Of a stretch of 64,000 nt of DNA, positions 4,425-16,907 are shown piece by piece (the stretch's first letter is position 1; each line of letters begins with the position of its first letter). This DNA comes from a virus (taxonomy: Duplodnaviria; Caudoviricetes). A program made the translations under genes and the position numbers. The notes under the pieces are model-generated. The model ran no database searches. It was given only the letters and a program-made list of their open reading frames with translations, and was not told the origin of the DNA. Location of the stretch: positions 94,769 through 158,768 of the IMG/VR virus record IMGVR_UViG_3300013426_000019; one strand, written 5' to 3'.

Positions 4425-5030
4425 ATGAAAGCAAATGAAGTGATGAAATTATTAAATATCAAAAGCAGGAACACCTTGAGCAGTTATGTAAAGGAGGGTT
4501 TAATAAAAGTAGCTACTACTCCGAGGGGAAGATATATCTACGATGAAGATTCCGTATATAGATTTATAGGACTTAAAAAAGAAAAGAAAAATAAAATAAA
4601 TATATCTTATTCTAGAGTTTCTACGCCCTCTCAAAAAAATCAATTGAAAGAACAAACAAAAAGAATATATGAGTCTTGCTTATCTAAAGGCATACAACTA
4701 GATTTGCAATTAGAAGACGTGAAGTCAGGGATGAATTCAGATAGAAGGGGATTTCAAGAATTAATACAAAGGGTGATAAAAGGGGAAGTGGAATTAGTAA
4801 TTGTAGAAAATAAAGATAGGCTAATTCGCTTTAATTTTGATCTGTTGGAAAATATTTTTAAATATTTTGGAACAAGAATTGTTGTTCTAAGTGAATCTCT
4901 AGATAATAAAAGTTATGAGCAAGAATTAACAGAGGATCTTATTTCTATAATTCATCATTTTTCTATGAAATCGTATTCTCATAGGAGAAAACTAAATAAA
5001 ATTAGAAAAGAATTAGAGGAAAATAATTAA
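4425..5030 (+). CDS. tnpA: IS607 serine recombinase TnpA
   Basis: N-terminal MerR-like HTH, YSRVST catalytic Ser motif, DVKSG, DRLIRF, ELTEDL. Confidence 0.93.
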   Translation: MKANEVMKLLNIKSRNTLSSYVKEGLIKVATTPRGRYIYDEDSVYRFIGLKKEKKNKINISYSRVSTPSQKNQLKEQTKRIYESCLSKGIQLDLQLEDVKSGMNSDRRGFQELIQRVIKGEVELVIVENKDRLIRFNFDLLENIFKYFGTRIVVLSESLDNKSYEQELTEDLISIIHHFSMKSYSHRRKLNKIRKELEENN

Positions 5031-5076: not shown

Positions 5077-6447
5077 GTGAAGACAATAAAGTTGCCTTAT
5101 AAATCAGAAGGTAAAGAAAGAATCCTATCTTATGTGAATAATTTCAATTCCGTATTGAGATTCACATATAATAGAATAACTGATTCTGAAAAAGGCTTAT
5201 CTACGAAGGAACTTACTAAATTCCAAAAAAGCATGAATAATGTCTTCATTGACTCTCACTTTAAAAATTCTGCTATTTTCAAAGCTAAAGCTTTACATAC
5301 GAGAAATCCAAATAAAAAAATATTATTTGGTGGGAAAAAGATATTTGAGCAGAGGAGAAAAAATACTTTAAGTAAGGAAGAGTTTAAAGCTTTGAGGTAT
5401 GCTCCCTTATGTTCTATAGGGGAAGCAGATAAAAAAGGAAATAGGAAATTCCAAATAGTTTCTGATTCCAAAATTCTATTTAAACCCAACAGAAAAGAAC
5501 ATATAGAATTAATCCTCCCAAAACTTAGAAATAATTATAGAAAAGAATTACTAAAATTAATGTCTTTTCAAAATTCTAAGACTATCTCCATTACATATGA
5601 ATTAGATTGCAACTACATATATATTTCTTATGATCTTCCCGCAGGAGAATCTTCTACGAAAAAGAATAGTATCCTTAAGGATAGGATTTTTGCGATCGAT
5701 TTAAATCCCAATTATATAGGATGGTCCATAGTAGATTGGAATAGTGGTGAAGAATATAGATTAGTGGCCTCTGGTTTGGGATCCACCAAGGATCTTAATG
5801 ATTGCGATTTTTCTCTAAAAGGCAAGGGGCTAAATTCTTCCTCAAAAGAAAGAAAATACATTTCAAATAAAAGGAAACATGAACTTGTAGAGATATCTTC
5901 TTATCTCACTTCACTGGCTTATCACTATCATTGTCAAATTTTTTCTATGGAGGATCTAACTATAAAATCCTCTAACAAAGAAAAAGGACATAAATACAAT
6001 AAATTAATCAATAACTGTTGGAATAGAAATCTTCTTACAAATCAAATAGAAAAAAGATGCAAGTTATTGGGTCTCGAATTTTTAAAAGTCAAAGCAAATT
6101 ACAGCTCTTTTGTAGGTAACTTAGCTTATCGAAGAGAGAATAGACCCGATATGATTCTTTCAAGTATTGAGATTAGTAGAAGAGGCTATGAGTTCTACCA
6201 TCAGTACATAAAGAAAGATAAAGAAAAACAAAAGAACATAATTTTCAATGAAAGCAAATCTAATAAAATTCTCATAAAGAAATCGTTGGAAGAATTGAAG
6301 TATGAGAAAGATTTCACATCCATCGAAAAATTATATAAAGAAATAAAAACTCTAAATTTGAGATATAGAGTTTCTTTAAATGAAAATTTAAAGTTTTTCA
6401 GTTTAAAATCTAATAAATCTAAAATTAATTGTTATAATTATATATAG
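5077..6447 (+). CDS. tnpB: TnpB-family RNA-guided nuclease
   Basis: RuvC-I AIDLNP, RuvC-II MEDL, RuvC-III PD...SIEISRRG; no obvious CxxC zinc finger; follows tnpA. Confidence 0.85.
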   Translation: MKTIKLPYKSEGKERILSYVNNFNSVLRFTYNRITDSEKGLSTKELTKFQKSMNNVFIDSHFKNSAIFKAKALHTRNPNKKILFGGKKIFEQRRKNTLSKEEFKALRYAPLCSIGEADKKGNRKFQIVSDSKILFKPNRKEHIELILPKLRNNYRKELLKLMSFQNSKTISITYELDCNYIYISYDLPAGESSTKKNSILKDRIFAIDLNPNYIGWSIVDWNSGEEYRLVASGLGSTKDLNDCDFSLKGKGLNSSSKERKYISNKRKHELVEISSYLTSLAYHYHCQIFSMEDLTIKSSNKEKGHKYNKLINNCWNRNLLTNQIEKRCKLLGLEFLKVKANYSSFVGNLAYRRENRPDMILSSIEISRRGYEFYHQYIKKDKEKQKNIIFNESKSNKILIKKSLEELKYEKDFTSIEKLYKEIKTLNLRYRVSLNENLKFFSLKSNKSKINCYNYI

Positions 6448-10326: not shown

Positions 10327-10359
10327 ATATTATTGCTCAGGGGTTATATTATATACAAT

Positions 10360-11859
10360 ATGAATATATATGAAACATCCCAAGCAACAATAAAAACTGT
10401 TGCACCAGAAGTATCAGCTATTATAGATCAAGAATTACAAGATCAACGCAACTATCTTAAAATGATAGCAAGTGAAAACTACTGCTCTGCTGCTGTTATG
10501 GCTGCTCAGAGTTCAATCCTAACAGATATATACTCAGAAGGCTATCCTGAACATAGATATTATGCAGGCTGTGAGAACATAGATAAACTAGAGGAATTAG
10601 GTCAGCAATATGCCTGTGAGTTGTTTGGAGCTGAACATGCATATCTACAGCCCTCAACAGGCAGTGATTGCAACTTAGCAGCTTATTGGGCAATCTTAAA
10701 GGCCAAAATTATTGATCCTATGTTTAAATACATACAGGAACAATACAGCCCGTTCTCTTACTCAGCTCAAGGAATTAAGTACGAAGAAAATGAGGCTCCA
10801 CGAACCTTAAGTGACTTAACAAAATCTCAGTGGGATACAATAAGGCGTGCATGTCATAGTCAAAAACTTCTGGCAATGGATTATAGTTGTGGGGGACACC
10901 TAACACATGGTTATAGGCAGAATATATCAGCACAGATGTTTGACGTATATCAATACGGAGTAACAACAGATAGAGAAAGCCCTAACTATGGTCTAATAGA
11001 TTATGAGGCCTTAGAAGCAGAGGCGATGAGAATCAAACCTCTAATCCTCTTAGCAGGTTACTCAGCCTATCCCCGCAAGCTCAACTTCAAGAAGTTTAGG
11101 GACATAGCAGATAAGTGTGGGGCCGTCTTAATGGTAGATATGAGTCACTTTGCAGGGCTAGTAGCTGGTAAGGTGTATGAAGGAGAATATAATCCTGTAC
11201 CTTATGCTGACATAGTAACTACAACAACCCATAAAACCTTCAGGGGTCCTAGAGGGGCCATGATACTATGCAAGAGATGGCTAGCTGAATATGTAGACAG
11301 TTCATGTCCAACCTGTATGGGAGGACAACTACCACAAATACTTGCAGCTAAAGTAGTAGCGCTTAAGGAGGCCATGTCAGAAGATTACAAAGACTATGCC
11401 AAACAAATAATCCTGAACTCCAAAGCACTAGCCAAATCACTTATAAATAATGGCATTAAAGTATGTACAGGAGGCTCTGATAATCATATAGTACTTATAG
11501 ATGTAAGCCCTCTGAACTTAAATGGTAGGCAAGCTGAAAATATCTTAAGAGAGTGTCACATAACAGTTAATCGTAATGCTCTACCCAATGATCCTAATGG
11601 CCCTTGGTATACTAGTGGTATTAGATTAGGTACGGCTGCTCTGACAACCTTAGGGATGAAAGAAGCTCAAATGATGGAGATAGGAGAGTACATAGCTAAT
11701 ATCTTAAAAAATGCTCAACCTTATACTATGAAAAGTGGAAATAAAAGTAAAGTAAAGGTTATATTAAATATAGATACAAAGGAAGATATAACAAGTAAGG
11801 TTGTGGAACTTATAAGAGAGTATCCTGCCTATAAGGAGCTAAGTAGCTATGAGCAATGA
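10360..11859 (+). CDS. glyA: serine hydroxymethyltransferase
   Basis: IASEN, YSEGYP..RYYAG, GGHLTHG, DMSHFAGL, TTTTHKTFRGPRG (PLP lysine), SGIRLGT. Confidence 0.95.
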   Translation: MNIYETSQATIKTVAPEVSAIIDQELQDQRNYLKMIASENYCSAAVMAAQSSILTDIYSEGYPEHRYYAGCENIDKLEELGQQYACELFGAEHAYLQPSTGSDCNLAAYWAILKAKIIDPMFKYIQEQYSPFSYSAQGIKYEENEAPRTLSDLTKSQWDTIRRACHSQKLLAMDYSCGGHLTHGYRQNISAQMFDVYQYGVTTDRESPNYGLIDYEALEAEAMRIKPLILLAGYSAYPRKLNFKKFRDIADKCGAVLMVDMSHFAGLVAGKVYEGEYNPVPYADIVTTTTHKTFRGPRGAMILCKRWLAEYVDSSCPTCMGGQLPQILAAKVVALKEAMSEDYKDYAKQIILNSKALAKSLINNGIKVCTGGSDNHIVLIDVSPLNLNGRQAENILRECHITVNRNALPNDPNGPWYTSGIRLGTAALTTLGMKEAQMMEIGEYIANILKNAQPYTMKSGNKSKVKVILNIDTKEDITSKVVELIREYPAYKELSSYEQ

Positions 11860-12220
11860 GAATATCTTAGGCATTACCTTAAGGAATGGTTATGCACTAT
11901 ACTACAATAATAACTTCGATAGGCTTAGGTCTGAGACTATTAAAGAAACCTTAATAGATGCTAAGTGGAAGTATAGTGAGGAAGATAACACAATAGTACT
12001 TAAAAAGAAAGATATAATCTTAGAGTTAAGCTCGACAGGTGTTAGGGCTTATATAGGTAAAATGTGGGAATCACATCGCAAGTATTGGAGAGTAGAAATC
12101 AACCTTACAAACTATGAAGATGTCGAGATAGATAAAGATAAGGGAACCTTAGAGTTCCTAGGTGAAAGTAGTGAAACACAAACAGGAAGATGCATTATAG
12201 CAATTATATATTACAAGTAG
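11849..12220 (+). CDS. hypothetical protein
   Basis: ORF overlapping the glyA stop, AAGGAG RBS. Confidence 0.65.
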   Translation: MSNENILGITLRNGYALYYNNNFDRLRSETIKETLIDAKWKYSEEDNTIVLKKKDIILELSSTGVRAYIGKMWESHRKYWRVEINLTNYEDVEIDKDKGTLEFLGESSETQTGRCIIAIIYYK

Positions 12221-12244
12221 AGTGTGTTGTACTAAATAAACAGT

Positions 12245-12319
12245 GAGAGGGTCATCCAAATAGGATAGGAGCTCCTACTATGTGAGTAGAGAATGTGGGT
12301 TCAAACCCCGCCCCCCTTA
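12245..12319 (+). ncRNA. tRNA-like RNA with degenerate anticodon arm (pseudo-tRNA or tRNA mimic)
   Basis: Acceptor GAGAGGG/CCCCCTT, D-loop with GG, canonical T-arm GTGGG-TTCAAAC-CCCGC; anticodon loop TATGTGA lacks U33; no CCA. Confidence 0.6.
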
Positions 12320-12341
12320 ATGCCTCCCATGTCAACGGCAA

Positions 12342-12443
12342 ATTGGGTATAGACAGCAAAAATTATTCTGGAAACTTAGACATAGACAAATCTAAGAGAA
12401 GATAGGCCCTAGTTGGTCTATCAAACACAAAAACGTACCCAGT
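12342..12443 (+). ncRNA. candidate three-way-junction structured RNA
   Basis: Closing stem ATTGGGTAT/GTACCCAGT, unpaired GACAGCAAA, hairpins CTTAGA/TCTAAG and GATAGGCC/GGTCTATC. Confidence 0.55.
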
Positions 12444-12450
12444 CTTATTT

Positions 12451-12475
12451 GAGAGTTAGGTTATCCCTAACTCTC
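12451..12475 (+). terminator. hairpin terminator closing the ncRNA unit
   Basis: 10-bp stem GAGAGTTAGG/CCTAACTCTC followed by TTCTTGTTT. Confidence 0.65.
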
Positions 12476-12531
12476 TTCTTGTTTAAGAATCCACCAAGTT
12501 CTGGTTATATTATATATAAGGAGCCAACACA

Positions 12532-14061
12532 ATGTCTAAACTAATAGAAGCAGCTTCAAATTATACAACTACTGAAAATGGTGCTAAAACATACAAATCT
12601 ACTACAGATAAAATACTAGACCTCTTCGCTATGGGGGGTGCTCTAAGGAATGCAGATAGTACAAGGATTGTAGAGATGGTAACAAAGGCCTACAAGAAGG
12701 ATCCTATTAAAACTCTACAAGTACTACTATACTTAAGAGATATTAGACAAGGACAAGGAGAGAAGAGGGTATATAGAGAAGCTCTTAAAGAGATCTTAAG
12801 GCCCTATATACCAACTAAAGGGGATATACCTCGCAAACACAGAGCCATACTTGAAAAAGTGTATAATACAACTATAGAGTTAGGCAGCTGGAAAGATATA
12901 ACAGATACCTTGCCTGTAAATGCCTATGCCTTCTATGTTAAGAAGCATATGAGAGATGAGAACTCCCTAATGTTCAAATGGTTACCCTCTATATCAGGTC
13001 CAAGAAATAGCAAAGCCGAAAGCTTAGCCAAGTACTTAGGAATGACTCCTAAACAATATAGAAAATGGCTATCCTCTAAGAGAGCCGAACTTAAGTTAGT
13101 AGAAACCTCTCTGTGCAAGAAAGAGTGGGATAAGATTGAATATGATAAGATACCATCACAAGCTAGTCTTAGGTACCGAGAAACCTTTGAGAGACATGAT
13201 GGGCGTAGGTACAAAGAATATCTGTGCAAGGTTAAAAATAACCTCAAAGAGGTTAAAATCAATACCTCTACACTATCACCCAGCCAGGTAGTTAAGGAGT
13301 GCCTAAATCTAAATTATGAGGACGAAGCCTTAGAGGTATTGTGGTCTAATCTACCCAACTATAAGAACAAGGATAATGCGTTGGTTATAGCAGATACTTC
13401 AGGATCCATGTATGATAATAGCCAGGGTCCTCTATCAATAGCGCTAAGCTTAGCCCTATACTTTGCGGAACATAATACAGGTATCTTCAAGGATGAGTTC
13501 ATCACGTTCTCAGAGTGGCCAGAGTTCTTGAAAGTAGATAGATCAAAATCACTATATGAAAGACTTACAATAGCTAAAGATGCTAATTGGGGTATGAATA
13601 CAAACTTCAAGGCTGTGTTCGATATGATCCTAAAAACAGCTATAGAATATAATATCCCAGAAGAAGAGATGCCTAAGACCCTATACTGTGTAAGTGATAT
13701 GGAGTTCGATGAAGCAACTATGGTAAAGGAGAGTACCAACTTTGAAGCTATCACCAAAGCATATACTAGAGTGGGGTATTGCATGCCTAAAATAGTGTTC
13801 TGGAATGTAAACTCACGTCAAAACAATGTCCCTGTTAAATACAATGATAAAGGTGTGGCACTAGTATCAGGGAGTTCGCCATCAGTGTTCAGCATGGTAG
13901 TGAGTGGTGACTTAGATCCTATTAAGTTCATGGAATCTGCTATCAATAAACCCCGCTACCTAAATCCTGCTATGGAAATAGTAGCCGAAATTAAAAAGGC
14001 TAAGCAACGCCCTAAGAGAAAGGCTAAAAAATTAAAGAGAACCCGGATTGACAGGAAGTAA
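12532..14061 (+). CDS. DUF2828/TROVE-like helical RNA-binding protein with vWA domain (Ro60-like architecture)
   Basis: TENGA..Y.ST...LDLF start, LRDIR.GQGEK, KWLPS, MIDAS ADTSGSM, TNF, SDMEFD, FWNVN. Confidence 0.82.
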   Translation: MSKLIEAASNYTTTENGAKTYKSTTDKILDLFAMGGALRNADSTRIVEMVTKAYKKDPIKTLQVLLYLRDIRQGQGEKRVYREALKEILRPYIPTKGDIPRKHRAILEKVYNTTIELGSWKDITDTLPVNAYAFYVKKHMRDENSLMFKWLPSISGPRNSKAESLAKYLGMTPKQYRKWLSSKRAELKLVETSLCKKEWDKIEYDKIPSQASLRYRETFERHDGRRYKEYLCKVKNNLKEVKINTSTLSPSQVVKECLNLNYEDEALEVLWSNLPNYKNKDNALVIADTSGSMYDNSQGPLSIALSLALYFAEHNTGIFKDEFITFSEWPEFLKVDRSKSLYERLTIAKDANWGMNTNFKAVFDMILKTAIEYNIPEEEMPKTLYCVSDMEFDEATMVKESTNFEAITKAYTRVGYCMPKIVFWNVNSRQNNVPVKYNDKGVALVSGSSPSVFSMVVSGDLDPIKFMESAINKPRYLNPAMEIVAEIKKAKQRPKRKAKKLKRTRIDRK

Positions 14062-14120
14062 CAAATCAGTTATATTATATATGTAAATAAAGAAAACACA
14101 ACACACAGGAGAAACCTAAT

Positions 14121-14522
14121 ATGGAAGCTAAGAAAATTAGAACAGTTGAAAGTAGAATTATGGAACTTGAAGCAAATAGTGATGCTGATGCAGAACTCCT
14201 CAGCAGTGCGCTTGCTAGTATATATGAATTAACAGCTAAGGTAAATAAGCTAGAAGAAAAGGTAGCTAAGTTAGAAAAGGAAAATGAAAATCTCAATACA
14301 TATGTAGAACAGGATATTGACACCAGACTTGAAGATGTTGAGTATGTTCTAGGAATGTATGAGGACCTCGAAGATCTTAATGAAGAAGATGAAGATTGTG
14401 GTGAAGGAGACTTTGGAGAAGAAGAAGCAGAAGATGAACACCATAAATCTGTAGCATCAATCTTAGGCGCATGCGAAGATGTTATTAAGAGTGTCAAGGA
14501 GTATCTTAAGGAGGATAAATGA
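14121..14522 (+). CDS. acidic coiled-coil hypothetical protein
   Basis: ORF with AGGAG RBS; heptad pattern, D/E-rich. Confidence 0.65.
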   Translation: MEAKKIRTVESRIMELEANSDADAELLSSALASIYELTAKVNKLEEKVAKLEKENENLNTYVEQDIDTRLEDVEYVLGMYEDLEDLNEEDEDCGEGDFGEEEAEDEHHKSVASILGACEDVIKSVKEYLKEDK

Positions 14523-15691
14523 AAATAAGAAGTGGCTTTGTGAGCAATAGTTCAAGTTCTAGCTTCATCTTAACTTATGATAAAAAAGGTGTAATAGACT
14601 CAGCCTCTAAGATTGTAGAGTATCTAAAGAATACAAAGGACAACTCTCGATTATACTTCAGAGGAAGAGAACTAAACGAAGGTGAAGATATCTTTGAGTT
14701 AGAAGACGAAGATGCTAGACTCATTAGATTATTCAGTGAACAGTTTGAAGATATAAATGAAGGAACGGAATCTAGAACGGATTACAGCTCTCCAGAGGAG
14801 TATACTGAGATAAATGTACCTAAGGTAAGACTATACACTAAAGCAGTCTTAAGTGCGGATCCTGCTGGCTTTGAATACTACAATTATGGTAAATATAATA
14901 ATATTGTAGATATGTCTGACGTGGAACATCTAAAGCATGATATATCCTTAGCTGTACTAATAAATGGTCCAACTGACGAAGATAGGCAGAAAAATCCTCA
15001 TATCGATGAAGATATTAAGGAGCAGAAAGAGTATGAGAGAATCTTCGAGAAGAGAATCACAGAATATAGACAGCAAAGAGTTAAGAATGTTAAAAACGAA
15101 GACACTCTATATCTTGTAAAGAATGGTTCCAATGTTAATGATATTGTAAGTGAGTTTGTAGATATTGATAATGAAGCCTTAGGAGATTGCTCAGCATCTT
15201 GGGAAGACTTCTCAGAGAGATACTTAGAGGATCCTACAATAGATCCTGAAGACTATAATCCTGACTACTACAAAGCTGCTCATAAATATATCCTAAAGGG
15301 TGATAACTATAAACTTAATAAGAGCTATATAGTTGTATACGATGAACTCCTCGAAGATAAAAATAAGATAATGGAGTATCTTAAAGATAATCTAGATAAA
15401 GACAACTACTTGGTATGGACTAACCCTGCTCTTAATGTTAAAAAGGAAGTCGTTGAAACTATCCTATACAATGTAGGTGGGGAAGAATATGAAGTACTTG
15501 AAAAACTTAACTTCAAAAATTGTAAGAAAAAAGCATACTTATATACTAATGCGGTTATATTATATAATGTAGAAGGCACAATAAGTAAGACAGGATCCTA
15601 TATGTTAGGAGAAGGAAAAATTGCTTGTGTACCTAAAGGTGGGGACTTAAAAGACTTCAGGAAATACATGAAGGAAGAATCTACCTTGTAA
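14519..15691 (+). CDS. MKIRxGFVSNSSSSSF-motif protein (copy 1)
   Basis: N-terminus MKIRSGFVSNSSSSSFI, shared with the ORF at 32454. Confidence 0.75.
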   Translation: MKIRSGFVSNSSSSSFILTYDKKGVIDSASKIVEYLKNTKDNSRLYFRGRELNEGEDIFELEDEDARLIRLFSEQFEDINEGTESRTDYSSPEEYTEINVPKVRLYTKAVLSADPAGFEYYNYGKYNNIVDMSDVEHLKHDISLAVLINGPTDEDRQKNPHIDEDIKEQKEYERIFEKRITEYRQQRVKNVKNEDTLYLVKNGSNVNDIVSEFVDIDNEALGDCSASWEDFSERYLEDPTIDPEDYNPDYYKAAHKYILKGDNYKLNKSYIVVYDELLEDKNKIMEYLKDNLDKDNYLVWTNPALNVKKEVVETILYNVGGEEYEVLEKLNFKNCKKKAYLYTNAVILYNVEGTISKTGSYMLGEGKIACVPKGGDLKDFRKYMKEESTL

Positions 15692-15812: not shown

Positions 15813-16907
15813 ATGAAGATTGTTGAATCTAAAAATACGAACTTGTATAAGTATGAAGTAGCAGAAGACTCTAACTACAAGATCTTTGAGAGTGATAAAG
15901 CCCACTACGTCTTCGATAAGAAGACGGGGGTAATGATGAGTTGGGGAGAGACTATGACAGACGATCCTCAGGAGTTCCCTGTACCTACTATCCTAGATTT
16001 AGAGGTATCTACTAAGTGTAATAAGCCAGTACCTTGTAAGTTCTGCTACAAGAGCAATACACATAATGGGGATATAATGTCTCTAGACACCTTCAAGAAG
16101 ATTATAGATACTATGAGTAGAGGCCTAACTCAAGTAGCACTAGGTTCGGGTTACTATGGTATAGAGAATCCTTATATCTTCGATATGATGGATTATGCTC
16201 GACTTAAAGGAATTATACCTAATATAACAGTTGGATGTGTTAGAGAAGACTTGGCTGACGACTATGCTAAAAGAGTAGGGGCAATTGCAATCAGTCGCTA
16301 CGAGGACTCTGTAAACGATTGCTATAACTCTGTTAAAAGAATGACAGATAGAGGAATAACACAAACCAACATACATTATATGATCTGTGAAGAAACCTAT
16401 AAGGGAGCTCTGCAAACATTAGAAGATGCCAAAACGGATCCTCGTCTTAAAAAGTTAAATGCAATAGTCTTCTTGTCTCTAAAAACTAAAGGAAGAGGCA
16501 ATAGAGGGTTCACACCTCTAAGTCAAGATAAGTTCGATAATCTAGTAAATAAGGCAAAGGAATATAATATTGGTATAGGCTTCGACTCTTGCTCATCACT
16601 TAAGGCGTTCAAGGCTTATAAAGGAGATGCAAGTGTATCTAAATTGATTGAACCTTGTGAGTCAGGAAGTATAAGCTCCTATATAAATGTAAAAGGGATA
16701 TATTATCCCTGCTCGTTCGCCGAAGGAACTAAAACAAATAATCTAAATTGGTCTGAAGGTATAGATGTACTGAGCTGTAAAGATACCAATGAGTTCTTGA
16801 CTAAGGTGTGGTATAATAAAAAAACCAAGGAGTTCAGGAAGGCCTTGCGGGAATCTAGAAAGTGCAATGAATATGATTGTAGAGAGTGTCCTCTCTATAA
16901 TGTGTAG
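15813..16907 (+). CDS. radical SAM protein with SPASM/twitch domain
   Basis: CNKPVPCKFC cluster motif (CX5CX2C), PCESG...YYPCSF, C-terminal C...CRECP. Confidence 0.85.
   Translation: MKIVESKNTNLYKYEVAEDSNYKIFESDKAHYVFDKKTGVMMSWGETMTDDPQEFPVPTILDLEVSTKCNKPVPCKFCYKSNTHNGDIMSLDTFKKIIDTMSRGLTQVALGSGYYGIENPYIFDMMDYARLKGIIPNITVGCVREDLADDYAKRVGAIAISRYEDSVNDCYNSVKRMTDRGITQTNIHYMICEETYKGALQTLEDAKTDPRLKKLNAIVFLSLKTKGRGNRGFTPLSQDKFDNLVNKAKEYNIGIGFDSCSSLKAFKAYKGDASVSKLIEPCESGSISSYINVKGIYYPCSFAEGTKTNNLNWSEGIDVLSCKDTNEFLTKVWYNKKTKEFRKALRESRKCNEYDCRECPLYNV

What the first reader, a model, noticed from the sequence alone, without database searches (positions are those of the whole stretch)
12229..14061. Ro60-like (DUF2828/TROVE-vWA) gene with two adjacent ncRNAs: candidate new ribonucleoprotein system
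Seen: a self-contained unit of promoter motif (ACTAAATA, 12231), tRNA-shaped RNA with an intact T-arm but defective anticodon loop (12245..12319), a ~100-nt three-way junction with a 9-bp closing stem and unpaired GACAGCAAA (12342..12443), and a terminator, directly upstream of the TROVE-vWA-like gene. Established: bacterial and phage Ro60 genes sit next to Y RNAs, including the tRNA-mimicking YrlA class. Inference: these are Y-RNA analogues for the poorly characterised DUF2828 branch, with the closing stem plus ACAGCAA as the protein-binding site. They could act in RNA repair or decay, or as decoys for host anticodon nucleases. I do not recognise the RNA as a named family.
Basis: partly seen in the sequence, partly recalled or inferred. 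Interest (0 to 1): 0.8.

Follow-up and report, generated by a model that had tools for sequence, protein, structure and literature searches.

The report
Phage Ro60-like protein with handle RNA
A large phage carries a gene for a Ro60-like RNA-binding protein preceded by a small structured RNA whose short stem plus ACAGCAA "handle" recurs beside the same gene in very different phages, which points to an undescribed relative of the Ro/Y-RNA particle.

Summary
The gene at 12532-14061 is a DUF2828+DUF7788 protein (PHROG 850). It has an intact vWA MIDAS motif. The 310-nt spacer before it holds a sub-threshold tRNA-like element (Rfam tRNA 24 bits, cut-off 29), a ~100-nt structured RNA and a terminator-like hairpin.

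A covarying 8-10-bp closing stem followed by invariant ACAGCAA recurs next to DUF2828 homologues.
- It was found in 73 of 80 viral loci and 60 of 77 metagenome loci. All 349 model hits lie on the gene's strand.
- In whole genomes of Listeria, Mycobacterium, Campylobacter and Felixounavirus phages, the significant copies lie only beside the gene.
- T4, T5, Bxz1 (true TROVE Ro60) and Bas51 have neither the gene nor the motif.
- No Rfam 15 family matched the element, and my paper searches found no description of it.

The inner module varies: nothing, anticodon-arm-like hairpins, tRNA-like bodies or whole tRNAs. Here it is two plain hairpins.

The proposed ACTAAATA promoter is not supported. A homologue, Bas63 gp130, is reported as Ro60-like and as a counter to the Ppl defence.

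Best reading: a Y-RNA-like partner RNA. Binding is untested. This scan noted the same system earlier in at least 77 other genomes.

The parts
12245..12319 (+). Sub-threshold tRNA-like element. It has a 7-bp acceptor-like stem with one A:C mismatch, a 4-bp D-like stem, an aberrant anticodon arm, and a canonical T arm GUGGG/UUCAAAC/CCCGC.
   Evidence: Rfam RF00005 24.0 bits against a cut-off of 29. ARAGORN -ps90 calls tRNA-Thr(tgt); default ARAGORN calls nothing. In the 94% relatives the A:C mismatch is A:U, but one D-stem pair and one T-stem pair are broken.
12341..12444 (+). Handle RNA. Closing stem 12342-12350 pairs with 12435-12443. Invariant ACAGCAA at 12353-12359. Inner hairpins at 12375-12396 and 12401-12422.
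   Evidence: Fold z -2.99. Model R2, built from other phages only, scores it 21.5 bits, E 4.5e-4. The three substitutions in the relatives are U:G to C:G in the closing stem plus two loop positions.
12451..12485 (+). Terminator-like hairpin (10 pairs, 5 G-C) followed by TTCTTGTTTA.
   Evidence: Consensus scan. The hairpin is kept in the relatives, with changes in the loop only.
12503..12517 (+). Copy of the recurring promoter-like motif GGTTATATTATATA.
   Evidence: 10 copies in the genome, mostly before ORF starts. It overlaps a sigma-70-like match at 12483-12511.
12518..12523 (+). Shine-Dalgarno-like AAGGAG, 8 nt before the ATG.
   Evidence: Read from the sequence.
12532..14061 (+). DUF2828+DUF7788 protein, 509 aa. 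The C-terminal vWA domain has MIDAS residues D288, S290, S292, T357 and D389.
   Evidence: Pfam and PHROG 850. The MIDAS columns are invariant in 37 homologues. It is 35% identical to Bas63 bas63_0130.

Best explanation
The ~100-nt RNA at 12341-12444 is a single-copy member of a widespread family of phage small RNAs. Each member carries a constant 'handle': an 8-10-bp stem with a conserved base (5' U-W-A-G ... C-U-W-G 3'), followed 1-2 nt later by single-stranded ACAGCAA. The handle encloses a variable module.

Inferred model:
1. The DUF2828/DUF7788 protein encoded next to it binds the handle, as Ro60 binds the conserved stem of Y RNAs. The protein has an N-terminal part of about 270 residues (its fold untested here) and a vWA domain with an intact MIDAS.
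2. The variable module is thereby displayed or gated. In other phages it is an anticodon-arm mimic, a tRNA-like body or a whole tRNA.
3. The particle acts on tRNA-like RNAs or on host factors during infection, most likely in phage-host conflict. A homologue is reported to counter the Ppl defence.

In this phage the RNA is probably made on the transcript of the upstream genes and ends at the terminator at 12451-12485. The protein gene has its own promoter.

Shown: the family, its covariation, and its specific, strand-matched linkage to the gene. Inferred: binding, the Ro60-like fold of this protein, and the role. The tRNA-like element at 12245-12319 is most simply a remnant or unconventional version of the tRNA genes that flank this gene in most phages.
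For: Discovery without selection:
- Model R1 (window plus L001 only) gave 25 non-self hits over 754 kb, 24 on the gene strand. Most lie within about 450 nt of the gene. A re-run of R1 on 11 of those loci printed the ten best alignments: nine show ACAGCAA after a stem of varying sequence, one of them without the leading A, and the tenth has ACCGCAA.
- The 7-mer ACAGCAA occurs 531 times on the gene strand and 64 times on the other strand in 165 loci plus the window.
- Of 434 unique gene-strand occurrences, 32.5% have a perfect 8-bp closing stem within 75 nt. With the 5' arms permuted the figure is 4.8%.

Census with model R2:
- 201 hits at E<=0.1 in 80 viral loci, all on the gene strand, in 73 of 80 loci by my count of the table.
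- 148 hits at E<=0.01 in 77 metagenome loci, all on the gene strand, in 60 of 77 loci by my count.
- In the 94 distinct metagenome hits, 89.0% of cells pair against 67.9% in shuffles and at most 43.4% when the partner is slid. There are 211 double-change cells against 65.6 in shuffles. The outermost pair is U:G in 56 of 94 hits, and U:G cannot pair on the opposite strand.

Whole genomes:
- Listeria LP-048 has 3 hits, all 72-341 nt upstream of the gene.
- Mycobacterium phage DuncansLeg has 2 hits, both just downstream of the gene.
- Campylobacter F365 has 2 hits, between tRNA-Met and the gene.
- Felixounavirus Andreotti has 3 hits in the adjoining tRNA array, at E 0.0025, 0.010 and 0.057, plus one stray at E 0.6 elsewhere in the genome (24090-24118).
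- Bas63 has 1 significant hit, between two tRNAs 0.5 kb from the gene.

Negative controls without DUF7788: T5 has 0 hits, T4 has one at E 0.68, Bxz1 has 0 and Bas51 has 0.

Reverse test, starting from an RNA pattern alone:
- 37 of 92 loci read hold the gene in the stored stretch. All 37 are on the same strand, at a median distance of 75 nt.
- 31 of 49 further records hold the gene elsewhere on the record.
- Among records at least 90% complete, 16 of 18 hold it.

Module mimicry:
- 39 seven-nt inner loops against 5.5 in shuffles.
- 27 of them have U at position 2 and a purine at position 6, against 0.7 in shuffles. CUGUUAA occurs six times.
- 7 of 41 mid-length elements enclose an ARAGORN tRNA or tRNA-like call.
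- A sub-threshold YrlA match lies inside a handle element of DuncansLeg.

Protein:
- With the protein's own families set aside, 24 of 30 nearest ESM Atlas clusters are TROVE+vWA_Ro60.
Against: - No binding, expression or end-mapping data exist. No RNA run holds this sequence.
- TROVE homology is not shown here. There is no PF05731 hit at E<=10. A profile search of PDB gives only a weak vWA hit and no Ro60. hhalign against a TROVE alignment aligns only 23 MIDAS columns at 52% probability.
- In the preprint, gp130 alone, expressed from a plasmid or from T7, countered Ppl. That activity therefore does not need the phage's own handle RNAs.
- Seven of 80 viral loci and 17 of 77 metagenome loci show no hit. 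Two complete phage records carry the RNA pattern without the gene. In KVP40 the only hit lies 7.8 kb from the gene.
- R2 with default filters misses the window's own element.
- The window element's inner hairpins (10-nt and 6-nt loops) are not tRNA-like.
- R2's seeds were chosen for perfect pairing, so the pair counts on A6 are circular. The counts on A9 are fitted to the model.
- Only two haplotypes of this phage exist, so there is no covariation test within the lineage.
Confidence: 0.6

Rival explanations
1. The handle hairpins are cis-acting processing or stability signals of phage tRNA-array transcripts, recognised by host RNases. They are not partners of the DUF2828 protein. The gene is merely a frequent resident of tRNA regions.
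For: - 52 of 80 viral loci have tRNA genes within 3 kb of the gene, and all 311 tRNAs are on its strand.
- Handles lie between tRNAs in Felixounaviruses.
- Some handles enclose whole tRNAs, so that leader and trailer pair.
Against: - tRNA arrays of T4, T5, Bxz1 and Bas51, which lack the gene, have no handles.
- Loci without any tRNA carry several handles, for example L069 and L048.
- This phage has no canonical tRNA at all, yet it keeps one handle next to the gene.
Confidence: 0.15
2. The element is an operator in the leader of the DUF2828 mRNA. The protein binds it to repress its own translation, so there is no free RNP.
For: - By a strict pattern, 81 of 104 elements lie upstream of the gene, 47 of them within 500 nt.
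- The median distance is 75 nt in the reverse test.
Against: - Here a terminator-like hairpin and a promoter-like motif separate the element from the gene.
- 22 of 104 elements lie downstream.
- In DuncansLeg both copies lie downstream.
- There are up to 8 copies per locus.
- Some modules are whole tRNAs.
Confidence: 0.1
3. The tRNA-like element at 12245-12319 is a decaying remnant of a tRNA gene from the array that usually adjoins this gene. It is not a working partner RNA and not a working tRNA.
For: - It scores below Rfam's cut-off, and default ARAGORN rejects it.
- U33 is replaced by A and the D loop is short.
- The two haplotypes each carry different broken pairs: the acceptor stem in the window, the D and T stems in the relatives.
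- Sub-threshold tRNA-like calls are common in homologous loci, 67 on the gene strand against 4 on the other.
- The synteny tRNA-handle-gene matches Campylobacter phage F365, where the tRNA is a good tRNA-Met.
Against: - The spacer is 99% identical among the 5 copies, while the end of the neighbouring ORF differs more.
- The T arm and most of the acceptor stem are intact.
- It is the only tRNA-like element in a 159-kb genome, so it may have been kept for a reason.
Confidence: 0.5
4. The hairpins are selfish repeats (REP or MITE-like, or homing sites) that spread within tRNA regions and have no RNA function.
For: They occur in several copies, in tandem, as hairpins.
Against: - All 349 model hits lie on one strand.
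- U:G pairs work only on that strand.
- The core is invariant while the stem covaries across unrelated phage families.
- This genome has a single copy.
Confidence: 0.03

Closest known systems
Ro60/Rsr with Y RNAs, in particular bacterial and mycobacteriophage YrlA (Chen et al. 2014, PMC4201824, passages read; Rfam RF02553)
   Same: - The gene for a vWA-containing RNA-binding protein has one or more small RNA genes within a few kb on the same strand.
- The RNAs have a closing stem formed by their 5' and 3' ends, carry a short conserved single-stranded motif, and enclose a tRNA-like module.
   Different: - The protein is DUF2828+DUF7788, not Pfam TROVE.
- The conserved RNA motif is ACAGCAA after a U-W-A-G stem base, not GNCGAAN0-1G.
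- No YrlA match exists in the window.
- The true TROVE phage Bxz1 has no handle.
- The modules range from none to whole tRNAs.
phiRo60 of Thermus phage phiLo with Yrl1 and Yrl2 (NAR 2025, PMC12135203; abstract and passages read)
   Same: A phage-encoded ring protein with two partner RNA genes just upstream of its gene. Binding was shown there by EMSA and cryo-EM.
   Different: That protein is a canonical Ro60 homologue (PDB 9KOP) and was not found by my profile of the DUF2828 family. Its RNAs carry the CGAA motif.
Bas63 gp130 (PhageMaP preprint, doi 10.1101/2024.10.10.617714; passages read, figures and supplements not seen)
   Same: - It is the same protein family. bas63_0130 is 35% identical over residues 1-477, E 1.5e-71, and lies directly upstream of tRNA genes.
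- The authors report a Ro60-like predicted fold and suggest that some neighbouring 'tRNAs' may be Y RNAs.
   Different: - In the passages I read, the preprint describes no stem-ACAGCAA element.
- The one significant handle in Bas63 lies between tRNA-Met and tRNA-Asn and is not an annotated tRNA.
- The reported function, countering Ppl, was obtained with the protein alone.
Pseudo-tRNAs and unconventional tRNAs in phage tRNA arrays
   Same: The element at 12245-12319 is cloverleaf-shaped with a good T arm. It lies where homologous loci carry tRNA genes.
   Different: It is below the detection thresholds, has no U33, and is the only such element in a genome without tRNAs.

Membership tests
DUF2828/DUF7788 phage protein family (PHROG 850) | Matches to Pfam PF11443 and PF25043 above their cut-offs | tested here: met
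   110.6 bits (cut-off 29) and 172.9 bits (cut-off 27.1). PHROG 850 at 1e-129 over 5-476.
Ro60/TROVE family | TROVE (PF05731) domain detectable by sequence | tested here: not met
   No PF05731 hit at E<=10 for the protein or in six frames of the genome. hhalign of 37 homologues against 28 TROVE proteins aligns only 23 columns at the MIDAS, probability 52%.
Ro60/TROVE family | C-terminal vWA domain with a MIDAS motif | tested here: met
   D288-x-S290-x-S292, T357 and D389 are invariant in 37 homologues. The MIDAS stretch aligns co-linearly with that of Bxz1 Ro60. There is a weak vWA hit to 8s05.
Ro60/TROVE family | Ring of HEAT-like repeats closed by the vWA domain (fold) | not testable with these tools
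Ro60/TROVE family | Partner small RNA gene(s) close by on the same strand | tested here: met
   Handle RNA lies 88 nt upstream on the same strand in this window. The same holds in 73 of 80 and 60 of 77 homologous loci.
YrlA / Y RNA (Rfam RF02553, RF00019) | Match to the covariance model; GNCGAA-type Ro-binding motif | tested here: not met
   No Y RNA or YrlA hit at E<=10 in 12150-12600 or at gathering score in the window. The motif here is ACAGCAA. The only YrlA signal is a sub-threshold 27.3 bits (cut-off 69) in mycobacteriophage DuncansLeg.
tRNA (Rfam RF00005) | Score at or above the gathering threshold; canonical 7-nt anticodon loop with U33 | tested here: not met
   24.0 bits against 29. 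Default ARAGORN finds none. The loop is UAUGUGA with A at position 33.
Stem-ACAGCAA handle RNA family (defined here, model R2) | 8-10-bp closing stem, 1-2 nt, ACAGCAA; same strand as and near a DUF2828 gene | tested here: met
   R2, built without this window, scores 12341-12444 at 21.5 bits, E 4.5e-4 in 4 kb with filters off. It is the best hit in that stretch.

The most novel reading that the evidence does not exclude
DUF2828 proteins and handle RNAs form a second class of Ro-like particle, independent of TROVE Ro60 and Y RNAs. One universal protein-binding handle presents interchangeable tRNA parts: anticodon arms, tRNA bodies or whole tRNAs. Phages would use these as decoys, sensors or repair platforms against host defences that cut or sense tRNAs. 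The Ppl counter-defence of Bas63 gp130 would be one read-out of this.
Probability: 0.3. Interest if true: 0.9.

Novelty: new variant of a known kind. Interest (0 to 1): 0.8.

Why it matters
Homologues of this protein occur in 710 of 50,697 deposited phage genomes. These include therapeutic and model phages: Felixounaviruses, Listeria P100-like phages, staphylococcal and enterococcal myoviruses, mycobacteriophages and Campylobacter phages. The protein is usually annotated only as 'RNA-binding', 'vWFA' or hypothetical.

A conserved, easily recognised RNA partner would make its function testable. It would add a new small-RNA family to phage annotation; these hairpins are currently unannotated or hidden in tRNA arrays. 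It would also connect a reported anti-defence activity to an RNA mechanism. The tRNA-mimicking modules suggest a link to the tRNA-centred arms race between phages and bacteria.

Tried and rejected
- Closer relatives for covariation within the lineage. The viral and metagenome scans returned only four 94% relatives whose spacers are identical to each other. There is therefore no lineage-level covariation test.
- Sequence route to TROVE. A PDB profile search, hhalign against one Ro60 and hhalign against 28 TROVE proteins gave only the MIDAS stretch.
- Expression. No RNA holder is listed for the window; the 4 holders come from one study and their kind is not on record.
- Homology of the tRNA-like element to the tRNA-Met of Campylobacter phage F365. 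Nothing was shared beyond generic tRNA positions.
- ACTAAATA as a promoter. It is not a recurring motif.
- R2 with default filters misses the window element because of its long insert. It was found only with filters off.
- An R2 hit at 15058-15118 (E 0.025) lies inside an ORF and was treated as chance.
- Papers. 'DUF2828' gave 5 papers, none relevant. 'DUF7788' gave 1, irrelevant. 'ACAGCAA' with 'phage' gave 0. 'Ro-like'+phage+tRNA gave 7, which are genome announcements plus the LeBron toxicity screen.
- Supplements were closed. Supplemental Tables S1 and S2 of Chen et al. 2014 (which 22 phages were included) and Supplementary Fig. 7E of the PhageMaP preprint could bear on prior description and were not seen.
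- The pair counts on A6 are circular, because the seeds were chosen for 8/8 pairing. I rely instead and on the whole-genome controls.
- In the reverse test, 16 of the 108 stretches (L261 and higher) were not read by my script. L172 was not held.
Full report
WHAT IS THERE

The window is the last 64 kb of a single 158,768-bp virus contig. It has 36.5% G+C and CheckV estimates 74% completeness. Default ARAGORN finds no tRNA gene in it.

The ORF at 12532-14061 (+) encodes 509 aa. It matches Pfam DUF7788 (7.9e-51, residues 282-458) and DUF2828 (1.1e-31), and PHROG 850 'RNA-binding protein' (1e-129). In an alignment of 37 homologues the vWA MIDAS residues D288, S290, S292, T357 and D389 are invariant.

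A 311-nt spacer lies between the preceding ORF (11849-12220) and this gene. It holds four things.
- A cloverleaf-like element at 12245-12319. It matches Rfam tRNA end to end at 24.0 bits, below the cut-off of 29. ARAGORN calls it tRNA-Thr(UGU) only at lowered stringency. It has an A:C mismatch in the acceptor stem and A instead of U33.
- A ~100-nt structure at 12342-12443. A 9-bp closing stem encloses two hairpins, and ACAGCAA lies unpaired at 12353-12359. The fold has z -2.99, and 3 of 200 shuffles fold as well.
- A terminator-like hairpin at 12451-12475 followed by a T-rich run.
- A copy of GGTTATATTATATA at 12503-12517. This motif recurs 10 times in the genome, mostly just before ORF starts.

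The gene therefore most likely has its own promoter, and the two RNA elements lie at the 3' end of the upstream transcript.

THE PROTEIN FAMILY AND ITS NEIGHBOURHOOD

tblastn finds homologues in 710 of 50,697 deposited phage records, 705 of them nearly full length. They come from Escherichia and Salmonella Felixounaviruses and from Listeria, Staphylococcus, Enterococcus, Bacillus, Mycobacterium, Campylobacter, Vibrio and other phages. They are annotated variously as 'RNA-binding protein', 'Ro-like RNA binding protein', 'vWFA protein' or hypothetical.

In 80 IMG/VR loci with 34-43% identical homologues, 52 have at least one tRNA gene within 3 kb. All 311 tRNAs are on the gene's strand. At lowered ARAGORN stringency, over all 161 loci held then (viral and metagenome), 67 further tRNA-like calls fall on the gene strand and 4 on the other.

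Annotated examples show the same picture.
- In Felixounavirus Andreotti the gene is followed 166 nt later by an array of 18 tRNAs.
- In Listeria phage LP-048 it lies among tRNAs. An RtcB-like ligase and an HD phosphohydrolase lie 1-3 kb away.
- In Campylobacter phage F365 a tRNA-Met lies 243 nt upstream.
- In mycobacteriophage DuncansLeg a tRNA-Tyr lies 1.2 kb upstream, and a 387-nt gap follows the gene.

THE DECISIVE TEST: IS STEM-PLUS-ACAGCAA CONSERVED NEAR HOMOLOGUES?

Only four close relatives of this phage were found (94% protein identity), and their spacers are identical to each other. There are thus just two haplotypes. Their three differences inside the structured RNA are one U:G to C:G change in the closing stem and two loop positions. 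That is compatible with the fold but proves nothing.

I built a covariance model R1 from the window element and that relative alone and searched 99 sources, 754 kb in all. It returned 25 non-self hits at E 0.07-10. Of these, 24 were on the gene strand, and most lay within about 450 nt of the DUF2828 gene. The ten best alignments, printed in a re-run of R1 on 11 of those loci, share a closing stem of about 9 bp whose sequence differs from locus to locus, then 1-2 nt, then a conserved core. Nine show ACAGCAA, one of them without the leading A, and the tenth has ACCGCAA. U/A-rich and A-rich linkers follow.

Counts that involve no selection agree.
- ACAGCAA occurs 531 times on the gene strand and 64 times on the opposite strand of 165 loci plus the window.
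- Of 434 unique gene-strand occurrences, 32.5% have a perfect 8-bp stem closing within 75 nt. With the 5' arms permuted among occurrences the figure is 4.8%. On the opposite strand it is 23.3% against 9.8%, with n = 43.

A second model, R2, was built from 77 short elements of other phages, without the window or its relatives.
- It recognises the window element at 21.5 bits, E 4.5e-4 in 4 kb with filters off, as the best hit there. Default filters miss it because of the long insert.
- It finds 201 hits at E<=0.1 in the 80 viral loci, all on the gene strand, in 73 of 80 loci by my count.
- It finds 148 hits at E<=0.01 in 77 metagenome loci, all on the gene strand, in 60 of 77 loci by my count.

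In the 94 distinct metagenome hits, 89.0% of cells pair. The figure is 67.9% in shuffles and at most 43.4% when the 3' partner is slid. There are 211 double-change cells against 65.6 in shuffles. The pair G6:C is invariant, and the outermost pair is U:G in 56 of 94 hits. U:G would be C:A on the other strand, so the structure is read on the gene strand, as RNA.

Two caveats apply. The seeds of R2 were chosen for perfect pairing, which makes the counts on A6 circular. The alignment A9 is fitted to the model.

SPECIFICITY

Whole-genome searches with R2 gave these results.
- Listeria LP-048 (133 kb): three hits, all 72-341 nt upstream of the gene.
- DuncansLeg (76 kb): two hits, both just after the gene.
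- F365 (132 kb): two hits, between tRNA-Met and the gene.
- Andreotti (83 kb): three hits in the adjoining tRNA array, at E 0.0025, 0.010 and 0.057, plus one at E 0.6 elsewhere.
- Bas63 (87 kb): one significant hit, between tRNA-Met and tRNA-Asn 0.5 kb after the gene.

Four tRNA-bearing phages lack DUF7788 and also lack the motif.
- T5: 0 hits.
- T4: one hit at E 0.68.
- Bxz1: 0 hits, although it encodes a true TROVE Ro60.
- Bas51: 0 hits.

KVP40 turned out to have the gene, and it has one hit (E 2.5e-4) on the same strand 7.8 kb away.

- Of the 92 loci I read, 37 hold the gene in the stored stretch. All 37 are on the same strand, at a median distance of 75 nt.
- Of 49 further records searched whole, 31 hold the gene elsewhere on the record.
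- Among records at least 90% complete, 16 of 18 hold it.
- For comparison, about 1.4% of deposited phages have the gene.

In this phage's own genome ACAGCAA is at background frequency (9 and 12 occurrences on the two strands). The element beside the gene is the only convincing copy.

ANATOMY OF THE FAMILY

The handle is constant and the enclosed module is not. Among 215 unique strict elements, 114 span 70 nt or less.

In 107 short forms:
- 90 have an inner hairpin, against 60.5 in shuffles;
- 39 inner loops are 7 nt long, against 5.5 in shuffles;
- 27 of those have U at position 2 and a purine at position 6, as anticodon loops do, against 0.7 in shuffles;
- CUGUUAA occurs six times, and CUUGAAA, CUUUUAA and CUGAUAA also recur.

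Seven of 41 mid-length elements enclose an ARAGORN tRNA or tRNA-like call, for example tRNA-Val in L140 and tRNA-Ala in L144. In DuncansLeg a sub-threshold YrlA match (27.3 bits, cut-off 69) lies inside a handle element.

The window's copy has two plain hairpins, with 10-nt and 6-nt loops, that do not look tRNA-like. It is also a single copy. By the strict pattern other loci carry 1 to 8 copies, mostly upstream of the gene: 81 of 104 upstream and 22 downstream.

IS THE PROTEIN Ro60-LIKE?

By sequence the answer is inconclusive here.
- There is no TROVE hit.
- A profile search of PDB finds only a weak vWA match (8s05, E 0.0013) and no Ro60.
- hhalign against Bxz1 Ro60 and against 28 TROVE proteins aligns only the MIDAS stretch, though at a co-linear position. 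Probability is 28% and 52% respectively.

Indirect support comes from two sources. With the protein's own families set aside, 24 of 30 nearest ESM Atlas clusters are TROVE+vWA_Ro60, at score 0.93. [quoted passage not shown] I verified that bas63_0130 is a homologue of the window protein: 35% identity over residues 1-477, E 1.5e-71, directly upstream of the tRNA array.

HOW IT LIKELY WORKS

By analogy with Ro60 and Y RNAs, the protein probably binds the handle and carries or gates the variable module. Known precedents are a closing stem with a conserved motif bound on the ring's outer face, tRNA-like modules in YrlA (Chen et al. 2014), and phage phiRo60 with two upstream Yrl RNAs. The particle would act on tRNA-like RNAs or on host factors.

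The preprint reports that deleting g130 impairs Bas63 on a strain with the Ppl defence. It also reports that gp130 alone, from a plasmid or from T7, restores plaquing. The family therefore has an anti-defence role. At least that read-out does not need the phage's own handle RNAs, which weighs against an obligate RNP.

RNA-repair genes are near the gene in some phages, and LeBron encodes a polynucleotide kinase and an RNA ligase. They are not near the gene in this window.

The tRNA-like element at 12245-12319 is most simply what is left of the tRNA genes that usually adjoin the gene. A role as a second partner RNA cannot be excluded.

COMPARISON AND NOVELTY

The logic is that of Ro60 with Y RNA. 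The members differ.
- The protein family differs by every sequence test I could run.
- The RNA motif is ACAGCAA rather than GNCGAA or CGAA.
- No family of Rfam 15 matches. I checked the window, and six loci that hold many copies, at E<=1.
- The range of modules is much wider.

My searches found no paper describing the element. The nearest statement in print is the preprint's suggestion that some Bas63 'tRNAs' might be Y RNAs. Supplements were closed, so I could not check the lists of Chen et al. 2014.

After finishing my own analysis I looked up this scan's notes. The same system has been reported from at least 77 other genomes with the same reading. Those are unchecked AI notes and I do not count them as support. 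I therefore file this as a new variant of a known kind. This window holds a minimal, single-copy instance in a phage without tRNAs.

Noticed in passing
window 12503-12517, 14068-14082, 10342-10356, 2838-2852, 15553-15567, 574-588, and four more in the genome before the window: GGTTATATTATATA-type motif occurs 10 times in the 159-kb genome, mostly 10-30 nt before ORF starts. It is probably this phage's main promoter element.
   Followed up: partly
window 15058-15118 (+): Model R2 gives a 19.5-bit hit (E 0.025 over the window) with an exact ACAGCAA, inside ORF 14519-15691. Taken as chance, but not examined further.
   Followed up: no
L164 5508-5640 (Mycobacterium phage DuncansLeg, after gp55): A handle element encloses a stretch (5546-5615) that matches the tRNA-like part of Rfam YrlA below threshold (27.3 bits, cut-off 69). 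This hints that the tRNA-like modules of handle RNAs and of YrlA are related.
   Followed up: partly
L140 1622-1734, L141 2698-2810, L144 2697-2809, L050 1872-1994, L056 5351-5458: Handles whose closing stem encloses a complete ARAGORN tRNA (Val, Val, Ala, Ile, 'Tyr'). The leader and trailer of the tRNA would then pair to form the handle.
   Followed up: partly
short-form handles in many loci, e.g. L050 2560-2627, L069 2852-2914, L072 5546-5612, L101 333-396, L165 3823-3892: Inner hairpins with 7-nt loops that read like anticodon loops. CUGUUAA is the commonest. There are 27 loops with U2 and R6, against 0.7 in shuffles.
   Followed up: yes
L240 1011-1065 and L259 8768-8821 (IMG/VR records rated 100% complete, 75 kb and 46 kb): The handle pattern is present but no DUF7788 gene is found anywhere on the record. 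This is either a chance match or a handle used with another partner.
   Followed up: no
Vibrio phage KVP40 NC_005083 168343-168909 (-) and 176662-176725 (-): I chose KVP40 as a control, but it has a DUF7788 gene and one handle hit 7.8 kb away on the same strand.
   Followed up: partly
L131, L136, L138, L140, L141, L143, L144, L152, L156 and related loci, about 4457-4501 on the minus strand: A short hairpin with ACAGCAA lies on the strand opposite the gene, at the gene's 3' end, in one family of gut-type contigs. It accounts for most minus-strand matches to the strict pattern.
   Followed up: no
L012 2493-2786, L045 6702-7191, L066 2510-2874; L069 2340-2461: ARAGORN or Rfam call tmRNA-like elements close to DUF2828 genes in several loci.
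   Followed up: no
window 10333-11859: A long serine hydroxymethyltransferase-like gene (Pfam SHMT 7.6e-119) lies two genes upstream. A radical SAM/SPASM gene lies at 15813-16907. No RNA-repair genes are adjacent.
   Followed up: no
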